37,041 nt of DNA from Promethearchaeia archaeon. Lineage in GTDB: Archaea > Asgardarchaeota > Lokiarchaeia > Sigyniarchaeales > SOKP01. The notes under the pieces are model-generated. The model saw only the letters and a program-made list of their open reading frames with translations. It did not search any database and was not told the origin of the DNA. The stretch is from contig JAHQWL010000053.1 of the NCBI GenBank assembly GCA_029856155.1, forward strand, positions 1-37,041. The letters run 5' to 3'. Below are positions 1,343-31,544 of this stretch, piece by piece; the first letter of the stretch is position 1; every line of letters starts with the position of its first letter. The position numbers were made by a program, and so were the translations under genes.

Positions 1343-2656
1343 ATGATGGAAACTAAATATCCGACAGAGCAATTAAAGTGTTGGAATAAAGCTAAAGCTC
1401 TTAGAAAAAATTATTATAAAGATTTTGCTGAGGCTCATGATAAAGGAGGCCTTCGATGGGTAGGAGGAGCTTGGTCTTTTGATGCTATTCCTGCTGGTTT
1501 GGGAGATGATGTTTATTCACTAACAGGAGAGCCTTATGGCGCAACTGTAGCATTTAATGATAAATTTGCTTTAGAATGCCATGAAGCTACTGAAGCGAGG
1601 GGCTTTGCGCGGGATCTATGCTCTTATATGCGTAATTATTGGGGATCTATACTTATAAACAAATATGCATGGCCGCAATTTTCAGAAGAATTCCCTAAAC
1701 CTGATTTTATTTGGCAAGATCATATTTGTTGTTCACATGCTAAATGGTATCAAGTTGCAAGTGAGCTTGAAGGAGGAATTCCAATGTTCGACATTGATGT
1801 ATCAGTAGGACCATATGAAGAATTAACAGAACATAAAATTAATTATATTGTTGGTCAGATGCATGATGGTATAAAATGGCTCGAAAAAATCACTGGAAGA
1901 GATTATGATGATGAACTATTAATTAAAGCAGTTAAAAACGAATTTCGTACATGTCATTATTGGTCGGCAATTTGCGAGCTTAATAAGGCAATCCCAGCTC
2001 CTTTAGATGAAAAATCAATGTATTCTTTATACGTTCTTGGTACTTTAAGAAAATCAGCTCAATGGACAGCAGATTTTTATGAAAAGGAATTATATCCTGA
2101 GGTAAAAGATCGTGTAGCACGAGGTATAGCTGCCGTAGGAAACGAAAAATGTCGAATTATGACAGATACACAACCTCCATGGGCATTTTTGAGAATATTT
2201 CGCTATTTAGAGCAATACGGTTGTGTCTCTATAGGGAGTCTTTACACTTTTGGTCTTATTGGGTTATGGGAAGATAAAGAAGATGGGAGTTGGGGTCCAA
2301 AGACTATTCCTGATATTGAGATAACAAATCGAGATGAAGCACTAAGAGCTCTGGCAGATTGGAATTTAAGTAGGCCGGAATGGCAACATTTTTACCATCC
2401 AAAACTCAAATCTGATATGATGATTAGGATCGCAAAGGAATGGAAACTGGATGGTGTATTTTTGCACTTTAATAGAGGATGTGAGGGTTTAAGTCTTGGA
2501 ATCGCAGAAAATCGTCTAGCTATCCAAAAAGCAGGAATACCAACCATGCCCTTTGAAGGCAACATGGGAGATGAGAGAGAATTCGATCTTGAGCGAACTA
2601 TGAAGCGTGTAGATGCTTTTATGGAATCACTTGATATGGAGAAGATAAAATACTAA
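1343..2656 (+). CDS. bzdO: Benzoyl-CoA reductase, Bzd-type, subunit O (HgdA/BcrB family)
   Basis: [11 protein letters not shown]-terminus, [48 protein letters not shown]; RBS GGAGG. Confidence 0.9.
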
Positions 2657-2724
2657 TTGATTTATAGTATTAGATAATATTTTTAAGTTAAAAATTTAAG
2701 ATAAAAAATAAAAAATGGTTTAAT

Positions 2725-3510
2725 ATGATAACTGCAGGAATTGATTGCGGATCTAAAAATACTAAGGTCGTTCTTTTGAAAGAAAATAACATTTTATCAA
2801 CGGCTTCGGTATTAAGTGGATTTGATCAAGAAGAATCAGCAGAGCAAGCATTAAATAGTGCTCTTGAAAAGGCTGGAATTAAACGTGAAGATGTTAAACA
2901 TCTTACAGCAACGGGAGCTGGAATGGAGGCGATTTCTTTTGCTGACGATAATGTCACTACTATTACATGTGACGGTCGTGGAACATTCTTTCTTTTCCCT
3001 TCAACCCGTACTATTATCGATATCGGAGCAGAAGAAGGATTGGTAGTAAAAATCGATGAGAAAGGAAAAGTCAAGGATTTTGGAATAAATGAGAAATGTG
3101 CTGCTGGAGCTGGTGCGTTTATAGAAGCCATGTCGAGAGCATTAGAAGTAGATATCGAAATTATGGGAGAACTTTCTTTAAAATCAACTAAAAAAATTCC
3201 TATGAACGCACAATGTACTATTTTTGCAGAATCTGAAGTTGTATCATTAATCCACCAAAAAACTTCTAAAGAAGATATAATTCATGCTGTTCATGATGCG
3301 ATTGCTGATAGAAATACAAGTATGGTACGTCAAATAGGTATTGAGAAAGACGTGGCATTGATAGGTGGTGTTGCGAATAATATTGGATTTGTAGATGCAA
3401 TGAATAAGAACTTAGGTTTTGATCTCTTAGTACCAAAAGATAATATCGCACCACAATATATAAGTGCTTTAGGAGCAGCACTTATAGCACAAGATAAAAT
3501 TGGAGGTTAA
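2725..3510 (+). CDS. bzdP: Benzoyl-CoA reductase ATPase/activase subunit P (BcrAD/BadFG ASKHA family)
   Basis: GIDCGSKNTK, ATGAG, IDIGAEE, NEKCAAGAGAF, AQCTIFAESE, GGVANN, ALGAAL. Confidence 0.88.
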   Translation: MITAGIDCGSKNTKVVLLKENNILSTASVLSGFDQEESAEQALNSALEKAGIKREDVKHLTATGAGMEAISFADDNVTTITCDGRGTFFLFPSTRTIIDIGAEEGLVVKIDEKGKVKDFGINEKCAAGAGAFIEAMSRALEVDIEIMGELSLKSTKKIPMNAQCTIFAESEVVSLIHQKTSKEDIIHAVHDAIADRNTSMVRQIGIEKDVALIGGVANNIGFVDAMNKNLGFDLLVPKDNIAPQYISALGAALIAQDKIGG

Positions 3511-16505: not shown

Positions 16506-16910
16506 TCAAGAAACTTCCTTTTTCAATTTTTCAAAAAGTTTTTTGTATTCCTCGATATATTTCTCATCATTTGTTTTCTCAATCTTTTTAAGGAGTTCGA
16601 CTGATTTTGTTAAAATTTCAGATTGCTTTTTGATTTTTTCATAAAAGATTTTCTTTGTATCTTGAGTTTCTGCTGTTTGTAATTTATCCTCAAATTCTTT
16701 TATGGATGTTTTAATTTCTTTCTGAGATTCAATTACAGAAGATGCCAATTGTTTTTTTCTTTCTGCTAATTTAATACAATTTTTACAAACAATTTCTTCA
16801 TTATTCTCTTGTTTTCTTAATTTTTCTCCTTTTGGCATCATAAAAGGATTTTTACAACGATCACATGCAACCAATTCAAGTACTAACTTGTCAGTGTTAG
16901 AATCGGTCAT
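16506..16910 (-). CDS. Zn-ribbon (CxxC...CxxC) plus coiled-coil protein, unknown function
   Basis: CDRC...CKNC followed by about 85 aa of E/K-rich helical sequence. Confidence 0.7.
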   Translation of the reverse strand: MTDSNTDKLVLELVACDRCKNPFMMPKGEKLRKQENNEEIVCKNCIKLAERKKQLASSVIESQKEIKTSIKEFEDKLQTAETQDTKKIFYEKIKKQSEILTKSVELLKKIEKTNDEKYIEEYKKLFEKLKKEVS

Positions 16911-17850: not shown

Positions 17851-17863
17851 AAAACTTTATAAA
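17851..17863 (+). promoter_or_regulatory. TATA-box candidate for the ubiquitin-like gene
   Basis: AAAAC-TTTATAAA, the same core as the element at 7109-7125; strong RBS GGAGGAAGGA directly before ATG 17946. Confidence 0.3.
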
Positions 17864-17945
17864 TCTTAAAATTTAATTTTTAATTTAAGACACGTTAAAA
17901 ATAACTTTTCTAATCCAAATTTAAATATAAACTAGGAGGAAGGAA

Positions 17946-18176
17946 ATGGTAAAAGTTAAAGACCTCGAGAAACTTATGGATGATTTCATGATTGAACTAG
18001 ATGATAAATTTATTGATATAAAACCTTATCTTCTGAATGAATTTGAATGGGAAGTAGATCCTATGAAGAAATCTCAATTTATAATAAGAGGTATTCCAAT
18101 AGAAGATGATAGGAAATTGAGTAATATTTTGAAATCATTTTTAGAAGATGAAGTTATAAGTCTTAAAGAAGTTTAA
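17946..18176 (+). CDS. Ubiquitin-like (beta-grasp) protein without C-terminal di-glycine
   Basis: Manual alignment to ubiquitin: VKDL/VKTL, IELDDKFIDIK/VEPSDTIENVK, VDP/IPP, QFIIRGIPIEDDRKLSN/RLIFAGKQLEDGRTLSD, EDEVISL/KESTLHL; 76 aa; strong RBS. Confidence 0.68.
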   Translation: MVKVKDLEKLMDDFMIELDDKFIDIKPYLLNEFEWEVDPMKKSQFIIRGIPIEDDRKLSNILKSFLEDEVISLKEV

Positions 18177-18244
18177 ATATGAAAAGTTGATTTAATCAAA
18201 TTTTTGATTAATAATTGTTTTGTTATCAATAAAGTAAAAATAAC

Positions 18245-19400: not shown

Positions 19401-19559
19401 ATGGAGTGAGATACCTCTTTATTGGAAAGGGCGAAATGTGAAGAAAAAGATCATAATTGGAAAAAAGTAGCTAATTTATATGAGCAAATATCAAAGATCT
19501 TTGTTGAAAAGAAAGAATTAATAAAAGCAGCAAAAGTACCAAATAATGTATTTTTTTAA
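19401..19559 (+). pseudogene. Decayed N-terminal fragment paralogous to the downstream TPR protein
   Basis: ME*DTSLLERAKCEEKDHNWKKVANLYEQISKIFVEKKELIKAAK aligns with PLIKEAKNEEKNYNWEKAADLYEQAAKTNLDRKKLKTAAN; in-frame TGA at 19407; own RBS (GAGGG). Confidence 0.75.
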
Positions 19560-19632: not shown

Positions 19633-22600
19633 ATGATTGTTTGGAATAACCAAGAAGAACCTTTAATTAAAGAGGCGAAAAATGAAGAAAAGAATTATAA
19701 TTGGGAGAAAGCTGCCGATTTATATGAACAAGCAGCTAAAACAAATTTAGATCGGAAAAAGTTAAAAACTGCTGCGAATATTTATATTAAACTAGGGGAT
19801 ATATGCATTCGAGCCATTTATGCATCAGAAATTAGAGAAGACTATTTAAATTGGAGTAAAAGGTCTTTTAAAGCTTTTCGAAAGGCGGAAAGTCTTTTTA
19901 TCAAAACTAATGATAAACTTCTGAGTGATGAATGTAATGCTAGAGCACTTGGCGTAACAGGCTTTGTTATTACGTCACTTGAAGAGGCGAGAAAAAATAT
20001 AAAAAAATCAGTTGATATTCTTTTAGAACTTATTGAAGAATATTCAAAAGCAAATGATACTAAAAATTACATAAGATTGTTAACTCTGATCGTAGACCCA
20101 ATGAATAGATACGTGTTTTTATGTTCTAATCCTTCTGAAATAGAGTATTATAGTCAGCTTGGTCGTAATTTAATAGAAAAGGCTTGGATACTTCTAAAAG
20201 AAATTGATACAATCGAAATTAGAAGTAGGCTATTATGGGCCGAATTTTTATTAATGTTAAATATTAATAGGTGGACAGAACTTACTTATGGAGATAAAAA
20301 GCAAGAAAAAATCTATAAAAGATTTTTAAAACGATGTGAAGAATCATTAAATTTAGCGCAAACTAGTAATGATGAGATTAATCATTATATTCTTGGAGAG
20401 ATTTATGGTATAACTGGCTTTATCTATTGTATATTTGGAGGTTTACTTGTTGAAGAAAAAAAGGAACGAGTAAAGTTTGCTGAAAAAGGATTCGAGTTGT
20501 TAGAAAAATCTATTGTATTTTATAAAAATTCAAGAAATATTCTTGGAGTTATCTCTTCTATATATGGGATAAACTATCAAGCTGGTATTTTTGGTAGATT
20601 TGAATACCTACAGAAGAGAATTCTAAACGATATGCGTGAAGTACAGAAATTAGATAAAATTTTTGAAAATTTATATACGGGGCCTTATTGCTTTATGGAT
20701 TTTATACCTATTGATTATTATAACCAATTCGCAAGCAGAAGTTTTTTAAGGGGTGATATACGGAAGTCTTATGCTAAATTAGGAATTGAATATGCTAATA
20801 AAGCATTAAAAAGACTTGCATTTGGACCTTATATTACTTTTGTTTATCAGTATATAACTCATTTTTATTCACAATTAGTTATTCTTGCTACAGAAGATGA
20901 TCCTTTAGAGGACTATCTTCAAAAAATGTTCTTCTACGCCAACAAAACTGAAAATCTCTCAAAAGAATATAAAGGAGGAAATGCAAGATCAGCGGGTTTC
21001 ACTTCGCTTTATAGAGCATATAAGACTCTTGCTGATATTTCTAAAGATAAGGAAGAAAAAGTTAAAAATTTAGAACTTGCTATAGAAGCTGCAAAGAATA
21101 ATATTAGATATTCAATTGAATCTTATAGGATTTATTTATCAATTCAAATACGTTTAGCTCTACTTCATGAAGAATTAGGTATTTTAACTACTGAAGAGAA
21201 ATCCCTAATACAAGCAAGAGAGTTATTTCTACGTATACTTATTGATTCTTCAGAAAAAGGTTATTATTATTATACAGCTGCTTGTCATGAATACATTGCT
21301 CGTTTAGAAGATCGTTTAGGAAATCATATAACTTCTGCAGAATATTATCAAAAAGCACAAAAAGCTCATGAAGATTCATTATCATCAATTGAATATAAAC
21401 CGCTGAAGGAAAGAATTAATGAAAAGATAAAATATACTAAAGCTTGGAATTTTATTGAAGAGGCTAAAGCATATCATAAAAGTGAAAATCATATAAAAGC
21501 CAAAGAAAACTATGAAGAGGCAATTGAGATCTTAAAAACGCTACCTAGTTTTAATTATGAAGCAGCTTATTATGGAGCTTGGATGGTTTTAGAAGAAGCT
21601 GAAGATCTTAGTAAAAAGGAAAAATATGATGATGCCATAATGAGCTATGAAAAAACAAGAGATCTTTTCGATAATGCTATCTTTACAATTAGATTTATTA
21701 GGAAAAGTGTTAGAAGGTCAAAAGAATTAAAAAAACTTGAGAAAGTTGCTAAAGTTAGGATGAATCATTGTTCTGCTAGAATAAATCTTGATGAGGCAAG
21801 AATTTTAGGAAAAAAAGGAGATCATATTGCCGCTGCCGAAAAGTTTAGCAATGCAGCAACTCAATTCAGGGATATCTGTGCATTATATAAAATTAAAAGA
21901 GAACGAGCTGAATTAGAAGCAATATATCATCTCTGTAGAGCCTGGGAAAGCATGGAATTAGCTGAAAACTACGAGGATCCGGAAAGATTCGCAGAAGCAG
22001 CAAACTTATTTACAAAAGCTAGCGACTACTTTACTGAGAGCAAATTAAAGTTCCTAGCTCAGGGTAATTCATCCTTTTGTTTAGCTCTAGAAGAGGGATG
22101 TAAATTTGATCAATCTAATGATTTTAAAGTTAAAACACGATTGTATCCAAATGTTAAATCAATTCTCAGAAAAGCAGCAAATTTATATGAAAAAGGTGGT
22201 TTTAAAAATGGTTCAGATTGGGCACTTGCAACATCAACTTATTTCGATGCTGCTTGGTATTTAATCCAAGCCGATAATGAATTAGATGTAAATAAAAAGC
22301 AAGAATTTCTAAATTACGGATCAAATTATCTAAAGTTATCAGCAGAACTTTTTCATAAAGCTGGATATAAAGACAAAGAAAAAGAAGTTTTAGAAAGATT
22401 AGATAGAATAATCAAAGAAGAAAAAATACTCGTTTCCGCCCTAAACACAATTCATAAACCCTCTGTTTCAAGAAGTATAGAAGGTATTATTACGCCTTCA
22501 TGTCCAATAGAAACAAGCCAATCACCACGGATTGGTGAAATTCAACAATACTCTGAAGAAGTAAGTACATTCTTAGAAAGGGATAGTAAAGTAAAAAAAG

Positions 22601-22881
22601 ATGAAATTGAATACAGCAATTTATTAAAAGAGCATCCAAAATCAGCAAAAAATAGGAAAATACCAGAATTAACAACTAGAGAAAAGAAAGAGTTAGAAAA
22701 ACTTGAATCTGAGCTTAAAATTGAACAACAAAAATTCATCTGTGTCGTCCATAAAGGAGAAATTGTAGGGACTGTATACATTTGTCCGAATTGCAAAACA
22801 CAATATTGCTTGACATGTGCTTACTCATTAAAAGCAAAAGGAGAAAAGTGTTGGATTTGTAACGAAGAAATAAAACCTTAG
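19633..22881 (+). CDS. Large TPR/SNAP-like alpha-solenoid protein with C-terminal RING-like Zn finger
   Basis: Repeated EA...AA..YE.A helical hairpins; C-terminal C-x2-H-x10-C-x2-C-x4-C-x2-C-x10-C-x2-C (22741-22860). Confidence 0.8.
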   Translation: MIVWNNQEEPLIKEAKNEEKNYNWEKAADLYEQAAKTNLDRKKLKTAANIYIKLGDICIRAIYASEIREDYLNWSKRSFKAFRKAESLFIKTNDKLLSDECNARALGVTGFVITSLEEARKNIKKSVDILLELIEEYSKANDTKNYIRLLTLIVDPMNRYVFLCSNPSEIEYYSQLGRNLIEKAWILLKEIDTIEIRSRLLWAEFLLMLNINRWTELTYGDKKQEKIYKRFLKRCEESLNLAQTSNDEINHYILGEIYGITGFIYCIFGGLLVEEKKERVKFAEKGFELLEKSIVFYKNSRNILGVISSIYGINYQAGIFGRFEYLQKRILNDMREVQKLDKIFENLYTGPYCFMDFIPIDYYNQFASRSFLRGDIRKSYAKLGIEYANKALKRLAFGPYITFVYQYITHFYSQLVILATEDDPLEDYLQKMFFYANKTENLSKEYKGGNARSAGFTSLYRAYKTLADISKDKEEKVKNLELAIEAAKNNIRYSIESYRIYLSIQIRLALLHEELGILTTEEKSLIQARELFLRILIDSSEKGYYYYTAACHEYIARLEDRLGNHITSAEYYQKAQKAHEDSLSSIEYKPLKERINEKIKYTKAWNFIEEAKAYHKSENHIKAKENYEEAIEILKTLPSFNYEAAYYGAWMVLEEAEDLSKKEKYDDAIMSYEKTRDLFDNAIFTIRFIRKSVRRSKELKKLEKVAKVRMNHCSARINLDEARILGKKGDHIAAAEKFSNAATQFRDICALYKIKRERAELEAIYHLCRAWESMELAENYEDPERFAEAANLFTKASDYFTESKLKFLAQGNSSFCLALEEGCKFDQSNDFKVKTRLYPNVKSILRKAANLYEKGGFKNGSDWALATSTYFDAAWYLIQADNELDVNKKQEFLNYGSNYLKLSAELFHKAGYKDKEKEVLERLDRIIKEEKILVSALNTIHKPSVSRSIEGIITPSCPIETSQSPRIGEIQQYSEEVSTFLERDSKVKKDEIEYSNLLKEHPKSAKNRKIPELTTREKKELEKLESELKIEQQKFICVVHKGEIVGTVYICPNCKTQYCLTCAYSLKAKGEKCWICNEEIKP

Positions 22882-23033: not shown

Positions 23034-23849
23034 ATGAGTAAGGGATTTAAACTTCTTCGAGTTGAATATATATTTTCTGTAATAATACCATGTCTATTAT
23101 GTATATATTTGAATAGTTATGATATAGTTTCTCAAATCTGGATATTAGCAGGTTTTTCTTTTTATGCTATTACAGGAAACACTCTTAATGATGTCATTGA
23201 TATGAAAGATCCTAATGAAAAAGAGACTTTAGAAAGAGTGAAGGGATATGCTAGAAAAGAAATACTTGTTCTTGCTCTCGCAAGTTTTTTGTTAGGAACC
23301 ATGTGTTTTATAAATGATATTTATGAGCATCCTATTCTCGGGATCTATTTAGCACTTATTGTTTTTATGGTTGTCTTTTATTGTCTATTCAAAAAGCTCG
23401 TTATTATTAATCATATTATTTTAGGTATATCTCATATTATTTTGCCTTATTTTATGATTAAAATTAATGCTGGAGATGTTTTTTTGAATGTTTTTCCCAA
23501 AATGGAGTTATATGAATCATTAATACTAGCAGCTATAACAGCCGTAGCTTTTACCGGGCAAATGGTTCATGAAATGATAGATGGAGATTCATTAGCCAAA
23601 TTAAAGCCAAAAACTTCTCAATTGGTAATTTGGGTTGCTTGTATTATATCATTAGGTATAGCAGTAATTTCATTTATCATCACAAATTACTATATTTTCT
23701 TACCAATTGTATTTTTTCCATTTGGAATTATGTATATTTATAGAAAACCTAGAACCGATTTATTAGGAAGAACGTCACTAAAAGACACTGGAATCATTTT
23801 AGGAAATCTTATGTTAGTGTATATCATTATTTTAATATTGGCTCCATAG
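23034..23849 (+). CDS. UbiA superfamily prenyltransferase
   Basis: NTLNDVIDMKD Asp-rich motif I, degenerate motif II HEMIDGD, about 8-9 TM helices. Confidence 0.75.
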   Translation: MSKGFKLLRVEYIFSVIIPCLLCIYLNSYDIVSQIWILAGFSFYAITGNTLNDVIDMKDPNEKETLERVKGYARKEILVLALASFLLGTMCFINDIYEHPILGIYLALIVFMVVFYCLFKKLVIINHIILGISHIILPYFMIKINAGDVFLNVFPKMELYESLILAAITAVAFTGQMVHEMIDGDSLAKLKPKTSQLVIWVACIISLGIAVISFIITNYYIFLPIVFFPFGIMYIYRKPRTDLLGRTSLKDTGIILGNLMLVYIIILILAP

Positions 23850-29922: not shown

Positions 29923-30504
29923 ATGCCTAATAATACTTTAATTCTTGTTCGGCATGCTGAAACCAGAGTTGATGATAAGAACAAGATATCAAAATGGATT
30001 CTAACTGAAAAAGGTCGAAAAGACGCAATCAAGCTATTTAGTTCGGATTTTTTTGATGACGTAGATATAATTATTACGTCAGATGAAGAAAAAGCATATC
30101 AAACCGCTCGTCCTTTATCAGAACGACTTCATAAAGAAATAATTAGAGAAAAAGACTTAAATGAGATCTTAAGAGATTTTGGTAAATATTTAAAAACTAA
30201 AGCCGAATATCTCAACACCATGAAGCTTTGTATTGAAAATAGAGACCAATCATATAATAAATGGGAATCAGCAAATCATGCACTTAATAGATTCTCAAAG
30301 AAAATTCAAGAAATTGATTCAAAATATTCAAATATGAAAATTTTAATTGTAGCGCATGGTGGAGTAATAAATCTATATTTTGCAGAAAAACTCGGACGAT
30401 TAGATAAAGTATTTCAAAGAACATCTACAAATACATTTTGTGATTTTGGAATAATTCAAAATAAAAAAGTTATAAAAGATATCGCTATAAATGATAATTT
30501 ATGA
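29923..30504 (+). CDS. Histidine phosphatase superfamily protein
   Basis: LVRHAET, TS...AYQTA, LNE, VAHGG. Confidence 0.85.
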   Translation: MPNNTLILVRHAETRVDDKNKISKWILTEKGRKDAIKLFSSDFFDDVDIIITSDEEKAYQTARPLSERLHKEIIREKDLNEILRDFGKYLKTKAEYLNTMKLCIENRDQSYNKWESANHALNRFSKKIQEIDSKYSNMKILIVAHGGVINLYFAEKLGRLDKVFQRTSTNTFCDFGIIQNKKVIKDIAINDNL

Positions 30505-31544
30505 ATTCAATGTTCCTAAAAAAGGCTAAATATCAAAGAAAGATTGACGAGAATTACTCTCAGTGTTTAACTTGTGAGAGAAGGTGTAAGATTCAAAAAG
30601 GAACAGTGGGTTTTTGCCAATCTCGACTTAATAAGGATGGAGAAATTTATTCCATTGTTTATGGACTAATTCCTGCTCTATCCTTTAATCCAATAGAAAA
30701 AAAACCTTTATACCATTTCTATCCGGGTAGCAAAGCAATAACAATAGGAACTTATGGCTGTAATTTTACATGTTTTTGGTGCCAAAATCATCACCTTTCG
30801 AAAACAAATCCTTTAAGAGCTAGTCAATTTGCCACATCTGATGAATTTATATCTCCTAAAAGACTTATTGAGATCGCATTAAAAAAAAAATGCCAAGGAA
30901 CATCAATATCCTTTAACGAACCTACATTACTGTTTGAATATTCATTAGAAGTATTCAAGCTAGCAAAACAGCATGGATTATATAATACTTATGTTACAAA
31001 TGGCTATATGACTGAAAATGTTTTAAGAGATTTAGTAGATGCAGGTTTAGATGCTGTGAACATAGACATAAAAGGAGATTCTGATATGGTTAAGAAATAT
31101 TGTGGTGCAGATGTAGATAAAGTATGGAGAAACGCCAAGTTAGCAAAAAGTTTAGGTGTTCATGTAGAGATTACTACCTTATTAATTCAAGGATTTAATT
31201 CTGAAGAAAAAATTGTTAAGAAACTTGCTGAAAGAATTTTTAGTGAACTAGGCGAATTAACACCCTATCATATAAGCCGGTTCTTTCCTCATTATAAATC
31301 ACAAAAATACGGACTTTCTGAGCCAACACCTTTGGAACTTTTATATAATGCTTATAAAATTTCAAAAGACGCTGGGTTAAAACATATTTACCTAGGGAAT
31401 CTACCTACAGTTGATTATGATAATACTTATTGCCCAAAATGTTCTAAATTAGTTATAAAAAGAAAAATTTTAGGTGTCAAAGAGTTATATTTAGATTCTG
31501 GGGGAAATTGTAAGTTTTGTGGATTTCCAATTTGTATTATTTGA
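30501..31544 (+). CDS. amrS: AmmeMemoRadiSam system radical SAM enzyme
   Basis: CLTCERRC...GFC, PIEKKPLYHFYPG, GCNFTCFWCQN, NEP, TNGY, NIDIK, EITTL, SRFFP, YLGN, CPKC...CKFC; ATGA overlap with the phosphatase. Confidence 0.88.
   Translation: MNSMFLKKAKYQRKIDENYSQCLTCERRCKIQKGTVGFCQSRLNKDGEIYSIVYGLIPALSFNPIEKKPLYHFYPGSKAITIGTYGCNFTCFWCQNHHLSKTNPLRASQFATSDEFISPKRLIEIALKKKCQGTSISFNEPTLLFEYSLEVFKLAKQHGLYNTYVTNGYMTENVLRDLVDAGLDAVNIDIKGDSDMVKKYCGADVDKVWRNAKLAKSLGVHVEITTLLIQGFNSEEKIVKKLAERIFSELGELTPYHISRFFPHYKSQKYGLSEPTPLELLYNAYKISKDAGLKHIYLGNLPTVDYDNTYCPKCSKLVIKRKILGVKELYLDSGGNCKFCGFPICII

What the first reader, a model, noticed from the sequence alone, without database searches (positions are those of the whole stretch)
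17946..18176. Stand-alone 76-aa ubiquitin-like protein lacking the di-glycine tail
Seen (manual alignment): equivalents of ubiquitin V5-K6, L8, D21, K27, P38, I44, G47, E51-D52, R54, L56-S57 and L69 are retained, K48 is Ile, and the chain ends LKEV with no GG. It has its own strong RBS. The pattern looks closer to eukaryotic ubiquitin-family domains than to ThiS/MoaD/SAMP. Established: Asgard archaea encode ubiquitin systems, and GG-less Ubls such as Hub1/UBL5 act non-covalently. Inference: an unannotated non-conjugatable Ubl family acting as adaptor, decoy or regulator. This is the best candidate for a novel element in the window.
Basis: partly seen in the sequence, partly recalled or inferred. 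Interest (0 to 1): 0.8.

Follow-up and report, generated by a model that had tools for sequence, protein, structure and literature searches.

The report
Tail-less remodelled ubiquitin paralog, Lokiarchaeia
This small gene of a Loki-type Asgard archaeon encodes a diverged copy of the archaeon's own ubiquitin that has lost the Gly-Gly attachment tail and is predicted to have a helix in place of its first hairpin, so it probably acts by binding partners, not by being attached to them; it occurs in only two genera and some close relatives lack it.

Summary
The 76-codon ORF at 17946-18176 (+) is real. It has a GGAGG Shine-Dalgarno 6 nt upstream and is single-copy. Median dN/dS is about 0.09 across 15 orthologues.

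It matches no Pfam, NCBIfam or PDB sequence family. An AlphaFold2 model (pLDDT 96) finds only ubiquitin-fold proteins in three fold searches, but weakly (Z 4.0-4.7, TM about 0.5).

Profile-profile comparison links it to the Lokiarchaeial 'ATQAGG'-ended ubiquitin: P 7.7e-5, score 27.8 against a shuffle maximum of 16.8. It does not link to ThiS/MoaD (P 0.026).

The chain ends at the equivalent of ubiquitin R72. None of 126 homologues has a Gly in its last 8 residues.

The first beta-hairpin is predicted to be replaced by an amphipathic helix. The I44-patch positions are only partly kept.

The family was found in two genera of one family (43 of 400 Asgard genomes searched). It is cleanly absent from the same locus in three near-complete congeners.

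In the second genus its stop codon abuts the start of a radical SAM gene. The link to the neighbouring methyltransferase and RING-like protein is not conserved.

Function is untested. This scan met the same family before on other genomes, and I found no publication describing it.

The parts
17856..17864 (+). TATA-like box TTTATAAAT in the TauE-Ubl spacer; candidate promoter
   Evidence: The spacer from the TauE stop through about 17908 is nearly identical in congeners that lack the Ubl gene. There it precedes the methyltransferase gene directly. The promoter role is inferred, not shown.
17934..17939 (+). Shine-Dalgarno AGGAGG, 6 nt before the ATG
   Evidence: Read directly from the sequence.
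17946..18176 (+). CDS of the 76-aa tail-less ubiquitin paralog (P0001)
   Evidence: ORF. 164 homologues of 74-81 aa. Median pS 0.565, pN 0.097, dN/dS about 0.09. AF2 pLDDT 96.1.
17955..17984 (+). Residues 4-13: predicted amphipathic helix in place of ubiquitin's beta1-beta2 hairpin
   Evidence: DSSP on the model gives H4-13. Hydrophobic moment of residues 5-15 is 0.69 at 100 degrees and 0.09 at 170 degrees. Asgard ubiquitin beta1 and beta2 show the reverse pattern.
17979..18128 (+). Residues 12-61: the core that aligns with ubiquitin (beta2 remnant, alpha1, beta3, beta4, short helix)
   Evidence: hhalign to Lokiarchaeial ubiquitin: query 13-61 to template 19-65, 28% identity, P 7.7e-5. hhalign to 27 Asgard Ubls: query 12-61, P 7.8e-5. 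K26 is invariant and D54 is kept in 33 of 36 members; these are the K27/D52 equivalents.
18153..18173 (+). Residues 70-76: the last strand (beta5 equivalent); the chain ends at the ubiquitin R72 equivalent with no tail
   Evidence: Model E70-75. VIA aligns model 76 with Ub 72. A joint MAFFT alignment puts the end opposite the R of the ...RTxGG ending.
18201..18224 (+). T-rich stretch after the stop codon; possible archaeal terminator
   Evidence: Sequence only. Inference, untested.

Best explanation
The gene encodes a lineage-specific paralog of the Lokiarchaeial ubiquitin. It keeps the ubiquitin core: alpha1, beta3, beta4, the short helix and beta5, with the K27/D52-type pair. It has lost the entire flexible C-terminal tail, and its first hairpin has probably been converted into an amphipathic helix.

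Its C-terminus is the end of the last strand and contains no Gly. An E1 therefore cannot adenylate it in the canonical way, and it cannot be attached to other proteins. It is under strong purifying selection, so it is in use. The most likely mode of action is non-covalent: a small ubiquitin-fold binding module or accessory subunit.

Shown here: the gene is real, selection acts on it, it is homologous to ubiquitin, the tail loss is conserved, and it is dispensable. Inferred: the helix replacement (a model plus sequence periodicity) and the non-covalent mode of action. Unknown: the partner.
For: - Real gene under selection: dN/dS about 0.09.
- Fold: AF2 pLDDT 96.1. The ESM Atlas model of its own cluster agrees, TM 0.74.
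- Fold searches: the Foldseek top 50 are all ubiquitin, NEDD8, SUMO or UBL chains with about 20% identity. VIA-wide's top hits are SUMO-2, Atg12, ISG15, a bacterial Ubl, YukD/EccD and Hub1, Z 4.0-4.7.
- Profile comparison: hhalign to Lokiarchaeial ubiquitin scores 27.8, P 7.7e-5, against a shuffle null of 10.4 +/- 2.1 with maximum 16.8. That ubiquitin type is itself firmly ubiquitin family (P 2.4e-8 to canonical Asgard Ub; PF00240 over cut-off).
- ThiS/MoaD control: only 16.2, P 0.026.
- Tail: no Gly in the last 8 residues of 126 members.
- Stand-alone: no longer or fused form found.
Against: - No Pfam ubiquitin hit at E up to 1.
- Fold scores are low for a true ubiquitin fold (Z 4.7, TM about 0.5), and hhalign probability is only 62%.
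- The alignment behind the model is shallow (Neff about 2.3).
- I could not inspect the model's coordinates, so where the N-terminal helix packs is unknown.
- There is no expression data.
- No partner is identified. The gene is absent from near-complete genomes of the same genus, so whatever it does is not essential.
Confidence: 0.7

Rival explanations
1. It is specifically an accessory subunit or partner of an enzyme in its conserved neighbourhood. The candidates are the AmmeMemoRadiSam-type radical SAM enzyme (c7, window 30501-31544), the UbiA-family prenyltransferase (23034-23849) and the alpha/beta hydrolases. This would resemble beta-grasp subunits such as TmoB and would have nothing to do with the ubiquitin system. 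It is a more specific version of the non-covalent reading.
For: - In genus g11 the Ubl stop codon is followed directly by the ATG of the radical SAM gene (TAG-ATG or TAA-ATG) in 4 of 4 loci. That gene scores 255 bits on TIGR04337, cut-off 220.
- In two more distant loci an alpha/beta hydrolase follows within 9-38 nt.
- A UbiA gene lies within six genes in 21 of the 25 loci tabulated.
Against: - In this genus the radical SAM gene is 12 kb away and overlaps a histidine phosphatase gene instead.
- The radical SAM gene, UbiA and the rest of the locus persist in genomes that lack the Ubl.
- The downstream neighbour differs between lineages: c7, c6, c8, c4 or PurU.
- No fusion protein was found.
- All these genomes belong to one family, so shared order may be inherited and not functional.
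Confidence: 0.2
2. It is a decoy or regulator of the archaeon's own ubiquitin system. A tail-less ubiquitin mimic would occupy an E1, E2, UEV/ESCRT-I, JAMM or proteasome-side binding site without being transferred. This is also a more specific version of the non-covalent reading.
For: - It descends from the Lokiarchaeial ubiquitin.
- The genome has Ubl genes and an E1-like gene on other contigs.
- The beta3-beta4 loop motif RGIPI is almost invariant: R48 36/36, G49 35/36, I50 32/36, P51 34/36.
Against: - No ubiquitin-system gene is linked to it in any of the 25 loci.
- The I44-patch equivalents are only partly kept: position 46 is hydrophobic but variable, mostly Met; 74 is Lys or Arg; 72 varies.
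- The L8-loop hairpin is predicted to be gone.
Confidence: 0.15
3. It is not a ubiquitin homologue. It is an unrelated small alpha/beta or helical protein, for example UPF0297/IreB/ReoM-like, and the resemblance is convergent or a modelling artefact.
For: - The best profile hit among PDB sequences is the UPF0297 protein 6tif, over 67 columns at E 0.13.
- There is no Pfam ubiquitin hit.
- Fold Z scores are in the range the tool calls common.
Against: - E 0.13 is not significant, and no member reported a Pfam match to the IreB family.
- ReoM/IreB is all-helical as far as I recall, whereas the model has strands at 43-47 and 70-75.
- Sequence-profile and structural alignments to ubiquitin agree on one register.
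- The score is about 8 sd above the shuffles.
- The structural K27/D52-type pair is kept.
Confidence: 0.1
4. It is still a covalent modifier, activated through its C-terminal Ile or Val by a non-canonical enzyme.
For: None directly. Some Ubls end in a single Gly or other residues, and this genome's own second Ubl type ends ...STAG.
Against: - The C-terminus is inside the last strand, with no flexible tail.
- There is no Gly in the last 8 residues of any member.
- No E1, E2 or JAMM gene lies next to it in the 25 loci.
Confidence: 0.03

Closest known systems
Lokiarchaeial 'ATQAGG'-ended ubiquitin (Pfam PF00240; own-genome copy at G000:C52:101469-101657, loci L007 and L120)
   Same: Best profile-profile match: score 27.8, P 7.7e-5, 28% identity over 47 columns. 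Shared motifs in register: E-x-D/P-P...IK, EY/EF...NP/DP, QF-I-x-K/R-G, and an acidic D/E pair after beta4. Similar size. Occurs in the same genomes.
   Different: The ubiquitin ends ...TQAGG, with or without a short cap, and reaches the Pfam cut-off (35.8 bits); this protein does neither. The ubiquitin has beta-type periodicity at its N-terminus, while this family has a helix-type pattern. The ubiquitin was found in other genera of the family and in a second family of the order. The tail-less form is in two genera only.
Hub1/UBL5 (eukaryotic stand-alone Ubl without Gly-Gly that acts non-covalently in splicing; own knowledge; PDB 4pyu)
   Same: Stand-alone, about 73-76 aa, ubiquitin-type fold, no Gly-Gly, so it cannot be conjugated canonically. 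It appears among the structural matches (Z 4.0, 59 aligned residues).
   Different: It matches no better than SUMO, Atg12, ISG15 or ubiquitin (all Z within 1 unit), and no specific sequence link was seen. Hub1 is a complete beta-grasp ending in Tyr-Tyr (own knowledge). This protein ends KEI or KEV and is predicted to lack the first hairpin. The similarity is in mode of action, not family membership.
Non-conjugated prokaryotic beta-grasp proteins: YukD/EsaB and the EccD N-terminal domain (PF08817), TmoB (PF06234)
   Same: Small ubiquitin-fold proteins or domains without a conjugation tail that act as subunits or adaptors. They appear among the structural matches: 7b7j Z 4.3 and 6lar Z 4.0; Atlas rows 3 and 6, TM 0.53-0.56.
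   Different: No sequence relationship was detected. This family's sequence signal points to Asgard ubiquitin itself. It has no type VII secretion or monooxygenase gene context.
ThiS/MoaD/SAMP sulfur-carrier type Ubls (PF02597)
   Same: Same broad beta-grasp superfamily. They are abundant in the same genomes (118 of 121 searched).
   Different: hhalign scores only 16.2, P 0.026, inside the shuffle range. They end in Gly-Gly and this family does not.
Glycine-less ubiquitin-like gene heading gatDE in Helarchaeota-type Asgard
   Same: According to that note, another tail-less ubiquitin relative in Asgard archaea that sits as the first gene of an operon. This parallels the g11 arrangement here, where the Ubl heads the radical SAM gene.
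   Different: Different lineage and different downstream genes. I did not compare the sequences.

Membership tests
Ubiquitin family (Pfam PF00240) | Scores over the Pfam gathering threshold | tested here: not met
   No PF00240 hit at E up to 1 for P0001, and none at E up to 10 for any of 36 members. The ORF is not among the PF00240 matches in its own genome at E up to 0.01.
Ubiquitin family (Pfam PF00240) | Significant profile-profile similarity to bona fide members in the structurally correct register | tested here: met
   hhalign to Lokiarchaeial ubiquitin 27.8, P 7.7e-5. hhalign to 27 Asgard Ubls 27.2, P 7.8e-5. Shuffle maxima are 16.8-18.4 in 550 shuffles. The register matches the structural alignment. 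Probability is only about 62%.
Ubiquitin family (Pfam PF00240) | Beta-grasp fold (beta1-beta2 hairpin, alpha1, beta3, beta4, 3-10 helix, beta5) | tested here: inconclusive
   The alpha1 to beta5 part superposes on ubiquitin, SUMO and Atg12 (55-67 residues, rmsd 2.8-4.0, Z 4.0-4.7, TM about 0.5). The hairpin is predicted as helix 4-13 with only single-residue bridges at residues 3 and 21. This is a prediction only.
Ubiquitin family (Pfam PF00240) | Buried Lys27 / Asp52 pair | tested here: met
   K26 is kept in 36 of 36 members and D54 in 33 of 36, at the aligned positions. That they form a salt bridge is assumed from ubiquitin (own knowledge).
Conjugatable ubiquitin-like modifiers (Ub, NEDD8, SUMO, SAMP, Urm1) | Flexible C-terminal tail ending in Gly (usually Gly-Gly), mature or after processing | tested here: not met
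   The chain ends at the R72 equivalent. There is no Gly in the last 8 residues of 126 members.
Conjugatable ubiquitin-like modifiers (Ub, NEDD8, SUMO, SAMP, Urm1) | Linked or dedicated E1/E2/JAMM genes | tested here: not met
   None appears among the clustered genes within about 8 kb in the 25 loci; the recurrent clusters were given family names, and clusters seen in only one or two loci were not searched against any family library. The genome's E1-like gene lies on contig 44 next to a different Ubl.
ThiS/MoaD/SAMP (PF02597) | Profile similarity to the family, and a C-terminal Gly-Gly | tested here: not met
   hhalign to 30 Asgard ThiS/MoaD proteins scores 16.2, P 0.026, within the shuffle range. 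There is no Gly-Gly.
Hub1/UBL5 | Specific sequence or structural closeness to Hub1 beyond the general ubiquitin fold; C-terminal Tyr-Tyr | tested here: inconclusive
   4pyu scores Z 4.0, tied with dozens of other Ubls. The protein ends KEI/KEV, not YY. The HIND-binding surface was not testable without coordinates.
UPF0297 / IreB / ReoM | Significant sequence match | tested here: inconclusive
   The profile against PDB gives 6tif at E 0.13. No member reported a Pfam hit to that family, though HMMER filters drop most weak matches. The model has beta strands, and the structural matches are overwhelmingly ubiquitin-fold proteins.

The most novel reading that the evidence does not exclude
The amphipathic N-terminal helix folds back over the former I44 face of the sheet. 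That would make a 'self-capped' ubiquitin that can no longer be read by ubiquitin receptors. This remodelled fold would then have been recruited as a dedicated small subunit of the AmmeMemoRadiSam-type radical SAM enzyme or the UbiA neighbourhood. It would be a case of a ubiquitin gene re-used as a metabolic enzyme subunit inside Asgard archaea.
Probability: 0.1. Interest if true: 0.6.

Novelty: new variant of a known kind. Interest (0 to 1): 0.42.

Why it matters
[quoted passage not shown] This family shows that, inside one Lokiarchaeial family, a ubiquitin gene duplicated, lost its conjugation tail, remodelled its N-terminus and was then kept under strong selection. Eukaryotes took the same route repeatedly to make non-conjugated Ubls such as Hub1 and UBL domains.

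It is a small, soluble and easily expressed protein. Its structure and partners could show how plastic the ubiquitin fold is.

Its importance is limited. It is confined to two genera, is dispensable, is not ancestral to any eukaryotic Ubl, and has no known partner.

Tried and rejected
- Sequence family searches found nothing usable. Pfam gave only sub-threshold noise such as Spore_Cse60 and UBA_ARI1. NCBIfam gave nothing. phmmer against PDB sequences gave a riboflavin kinase at E 0.65.
- The profile against PDB gave UPF0297/ReoM at E 0.13. I kept it only as a weak rival.
- The protein language-model look-up found no usable hit.
- AF2 on the single sequence was poor, pLDDT 65. Only the run with the alignment was used.
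- Search for fused or longer forms: none in 143-2000 aa proteins (weak evidence). Only two odd longer calls turned up among 1.84 billion representatives. One of them, P0121, sits on a single 949-bp contig and may be a chimera.
- Expression: no RNA holder is listed among the public runs, so I can say nothing about expression.
- The 'Ubl + methyltransferase + solenoid-RING module' idea is rejected as an obligate unit. c8 and c9 occur without the Ubl in G185, G224 and G183. The Ubl occurs without them in g11 and several g1 loci.
- A link to the AmmeMemoRadiSam trio is not supported in this genome. AMMECR1 and Memo are on other contigs.
- Literature: four full-text searches and two papers read found no description of a tail-less Lokiarchaeial ubiquitin paralog.
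- I could not obtain model coordinates. The packing of the N-terminal helix and the surface conservation were not examined.

Full report
**1. The observation**

The window carries an ORF from ATG 17946 to TAA 18176 on the + strand. It encodes 76 residues ending LKEV. AGGAGG lies 6 nt before the ATG. The stop-to-stop frame is only 81 codons. No ORF of 40 aa or more overlaps it on any frame. The window is AT-rich (27-37% G+C) and belongs to a 4.1-Mb Asgard genome that is 97% complete.

**2. It is a real gene, in a narrow family**

- A search of 5.8 billion proteins found 164 relatives.
- A filter-free HMMER scan of 1.84 billion 50%-identity representatives found only 10 clusters.
- Across 15 orthologous coding sequences the median synonymous difference is 0.565 and the non-synonymous 0.097. 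That gives dN/dS of about 0.09, which is strong purifying selection.
- Among 400 genomes of the phylum the family is in 43, all in one taxonomic family: genus g1 (35 of 53) and genus g11 (7 of 10). It is always single-copy.
- It is missing from several genomes of the window's own genus that are 99-100% complete.
- In G185 and G224 the locus is otherwise identical, and the TauE gene is followed after 75 nt by the methyltransferase gene. In G183 TauE is followed by the large TPR protein. tblastn finds no remnant of the gene.
- The gene is therefore maintained where it is present, but it is dispensable.

**3. Fold**

- AlphaFold2 with a 36-sequence alignment gives a confident model (mean pLDDT 96.1, pTM 0.83). 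Its elements are a bridge at residue 3, helix 4-13, an extended stretch, helices 22-24 and 26-32, strands 43-47 and 50-51, helix 58-64 and strand 70-75.
- The ESM Atlas model of the family's own cluster agrees with it (TM 0.74).
- Foldseek against the PDB: the top 50 hits are all ubiquitin, NEDD8, SUMO or UBL domains. E is 0.02-0.09, TM about 0.5, about 60 columns, 16-24% identity.
- VIA-align against 48,161 representative chains, run independently of Foldseek: SUMO-2, Atg12, ISG15, a bacterial Ubl, EccD/YukD, FERM F1, ubiquitin and Hub1, at Z 4.0-4.7 with 55-67 aligned residues.
- The Atlas lists RAD23, YukD, TmoB and Rad60-SLD clusters.
- The scores are low in absolute terms, and the tool warns that Z under 8 can be a common arrangement. 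The consistency of the hits is what carries weight here.
- The part that superposes is alpha1 to beta5 (model 8-76 on ubiquitin 13-72).

**4. Homology to ubiquitin, tested by sequence**

Pfam does not recognise the protein. Profile-profile comparison does.

| Comparison | hhalign score | P |
|---|---|---|
| Family vs human ubiquitin (single sequence) | 13.9 | 0.055 |
| Family vs the genome's ...STAG Ubl (single sequence) | 18.5 | 0.01 |
| Family vs 27 Asgard Ubls | 27.2 | 7.8e-5 |
| Family vs 12 Lokiarchaeial 'ATQAGG' ubiquitins (28% identity, 47 columns) | 27.8 | 7.7e-5 |
| Family vs canonical ...RTxGG Asgard ubiquitins alone | 18.9 | 0.005 |
| Family vs 30 Asgard ThiS/MoaD proteins | 16.2 | 0.026 |
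| Ubiquitin vs ThiS (accepted remote relatives) | 26.1 | 2.8e-4 |
| 'ATQAGG' ubiquitin vs canonical Asgard ubiquitin | 44.5 | 2.4e-8 |

- Column-shuffled nulls give a mean of 10, sd 2 and maxima of 16.8-18.4 over 550 shuffles. The family's matches to ubiquitin stand well above this. Its match to ThiS/MoaD does not.
- The closest relative is the Lokiarchaeial 'ATQAGG' type, which also reaches the Pfam cut-off.
- All alignments use the register that the structural superposition gives.
- E69, which is invariant, sits opposite the conserved Asp of Asgard ubiquitins.

**5. What has changed relative to ubiquitin**

- (a) The tail. The chain stops at the R72 equivalent, inside or just after the last strand. 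None of the 126 members has a Gly in the last 8 residues. Endings are KEI, KEV, RES and similar. Canonical E1 activation needs the flexible Gly-ended tail (established knowledge), so conjugation is very unlikely.
- (b) The N-terminus. Residues 5-15 have a hydrophobic moment of 0.69 at 100 degrees and 0.09 at 170 degrees. Beta1 and beta2 of Asgard ubiquitins show the opposite, about 0.22 and about 0.55. This supports the model's helix independently of AlphaFold.
- (c) The I44 patch. Position 46 is hydrophobic but variable (M, V, L, I, F, with one Q). Position 74 (the V70 equivalent) is Lys or Arg. Position 72 (the H68 equivalent) varies. By contrast the beta3-beta4 loop RGIPI, Y28 and W35 are nearly invariant. 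These are candidate functional surfaces (inference).

**6. Genomic context**

I clustered the ORFs of 25 loci. They share this backbone:

ACT protein - methyltransferase - 134-aa zinc-ribbon/coiled-coil protein - TauE permease - Ubl - variable segment - UbiA-family prenyltransferase - ... - radical SAM (c7) - alpha/beta hydrolases - MFS transporter.

- The variable segment holds the wHTH-methyltransferase c8 (11 loci), the large TPR/MIT protein with a C-terminal zinc finger c9 (8 loci), or PurU on the other strand.
- c8 and c9 occur without the Ubl, and the Ubl occurs without them. The proposed Ubl + methyltransferase + RING module is therefore not an obligate unit.
- The most suggestive link is in genus g11. 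There the Ubl stop codon is followed at once by the ATG of c7 in 4 of 4 loci.
- c7 is an AmmeMemoRadiSam-type radical SAM enzyme (TIGR04337, 255 bits, cut-off 220).
- In two more distant loci an alpha/beta hydrolase follows within 9-38 nt.
- In the window's genus c7 lies 12 kb away and overlaps a histidine phosphatase gene. c7 also persists in genomes that lack the Ubl.
- AMMECR1 and Memo genes are on other contigs.
- No E1, E2 or JAMM gene is near the Ubl in any locus. The genome's Ubl and E1 genes are on contigs 24, 44 and 52.
- The first ~70 nt of the spacer upstream of the Ubl, with a TATA-like TTTATAAAT, is retained in the Ubl-less congeners, where it precedes c8. Ubl and c8 may therefore share a promoter here (inference).

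**7. Mechanism**

The best-supported reading is a ubiquitin paralog that cannot be conjugated and acts by non-covalent binding (confidence about 0.7). The partner is unknown. The two more specific versions are:

- a subunit or partner of a neighbourhood enzyme, best candidate c7 (about 0.2);
- a decoy or regulator of the ubiquitin system (about 0.15).

The remaining rivals are non-homology, that is a convergent fold or a modelling artefact (about 0.1), and non-canonical conjugation (about 0.03).

**8. Comparison and novelty**

- It works like Hub1/UBL5 or like prokaryotic non-conjugated beta-grasp subunits. It is not a member of those families: structural scores are tied across all Ubls.
- By descent it belongs to the ubiquitin family. 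It fails the Pfam threshold and the tail criterion, and its fold is probably altered.
- I found no publication describing it.
- This scan had already met the family on other genomes. One follow-up (e1-5604727) reached the same reading. I saw that note only after my own tests, and my results agree with it.
- I rate it a new variant of a known kind, of moderate interest. It is a clean example of ubiquitin-fold plasticity inside Asgard archaea, but it is narrow, dispensable and without a known partner.

Noticed in passing
window 19633-22881 (+), and 19422-19559: This 1082-aa protein has an MIT-like N-terminus (29.8 bits, just under the cut-off), TPR repeats and a C-terminal Cys/His finger with only a weak RING hit (E 0.17). 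Orthologues in congeners are 946-1285 aa. Residues 1-1006 of the G185 copy align at 44% identity, so the length difference is at the C-terminus. A 45-aa ORF just upstream resembles residues 11-50 of the protein and looks like a partial duplicate remnant.
   Followed up: partly
window 30501-31544 (+); L084-L087: The radical SAM gene scores over the cut-off for TIGR04337 (AmmeMemoRadiSam system radical SAM enzyme). It is unlinked to AMMECR1 (contig 1) and Memo (contig 13). Here its start overlaps the end of a histidine phosphatase gene. In genus g11 its ATG directly follows the stop codon of the tail-less Ubl. Congeners searched carry a second paralog at 37-38% identity (own genome not searched).
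   Followed up: partly
L104 (G185:C46), L105 (G224:C19), L106 (G183:C45): The Ubl gene is cleanly absent from an otherwise collinear locus in three near-complete genomes of the same genus. The first ~70 nt of the spacer after TauE are retained and then lead straight into the methyltransferase gene.
   Followed up: yes
L008:1369-1701 and 1786-3045; L009:1003-1428 and 1474-2271; L010:1369-1701 (own genome, contigs 44 and 24): The genome has a second Ubl type of 110-141 aa with an acidic or low-complexity N-terminal extension, ending ...IPASTAG. One copy lies next to an E1-like (ThiF-type) gene. There is also a 265-aa membrane protein with a C-terminal UBL domain.
   Followed up: no
L121 (a 949-bp metagenome contig), protein P0121: A 109-aa call joins a Cys-rich 50-residue N-terminus to residues 18-76 of the Ubl. 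It was seen once on a very short contig. It may be an assembly chimera or a rare fusion.
   Followed up: partly
window 16506-16910 (-): A 134-aa protein with a Trm112-like zinc ribbon (sub-threshold) and a long charged coiled coil. It is conserved next to the methyltransferase and TauE genes in 24 of the 25 loci. No family assignment.
   Followed up: no
window 23034-23849 (+): A UbiA-family prenyltransferase with only a weak Pfam match (37.7 bits) and no NCBIfam family. It stays within a few genes of the Ubl across both genera and in the more distant loci.
   Followed up: no
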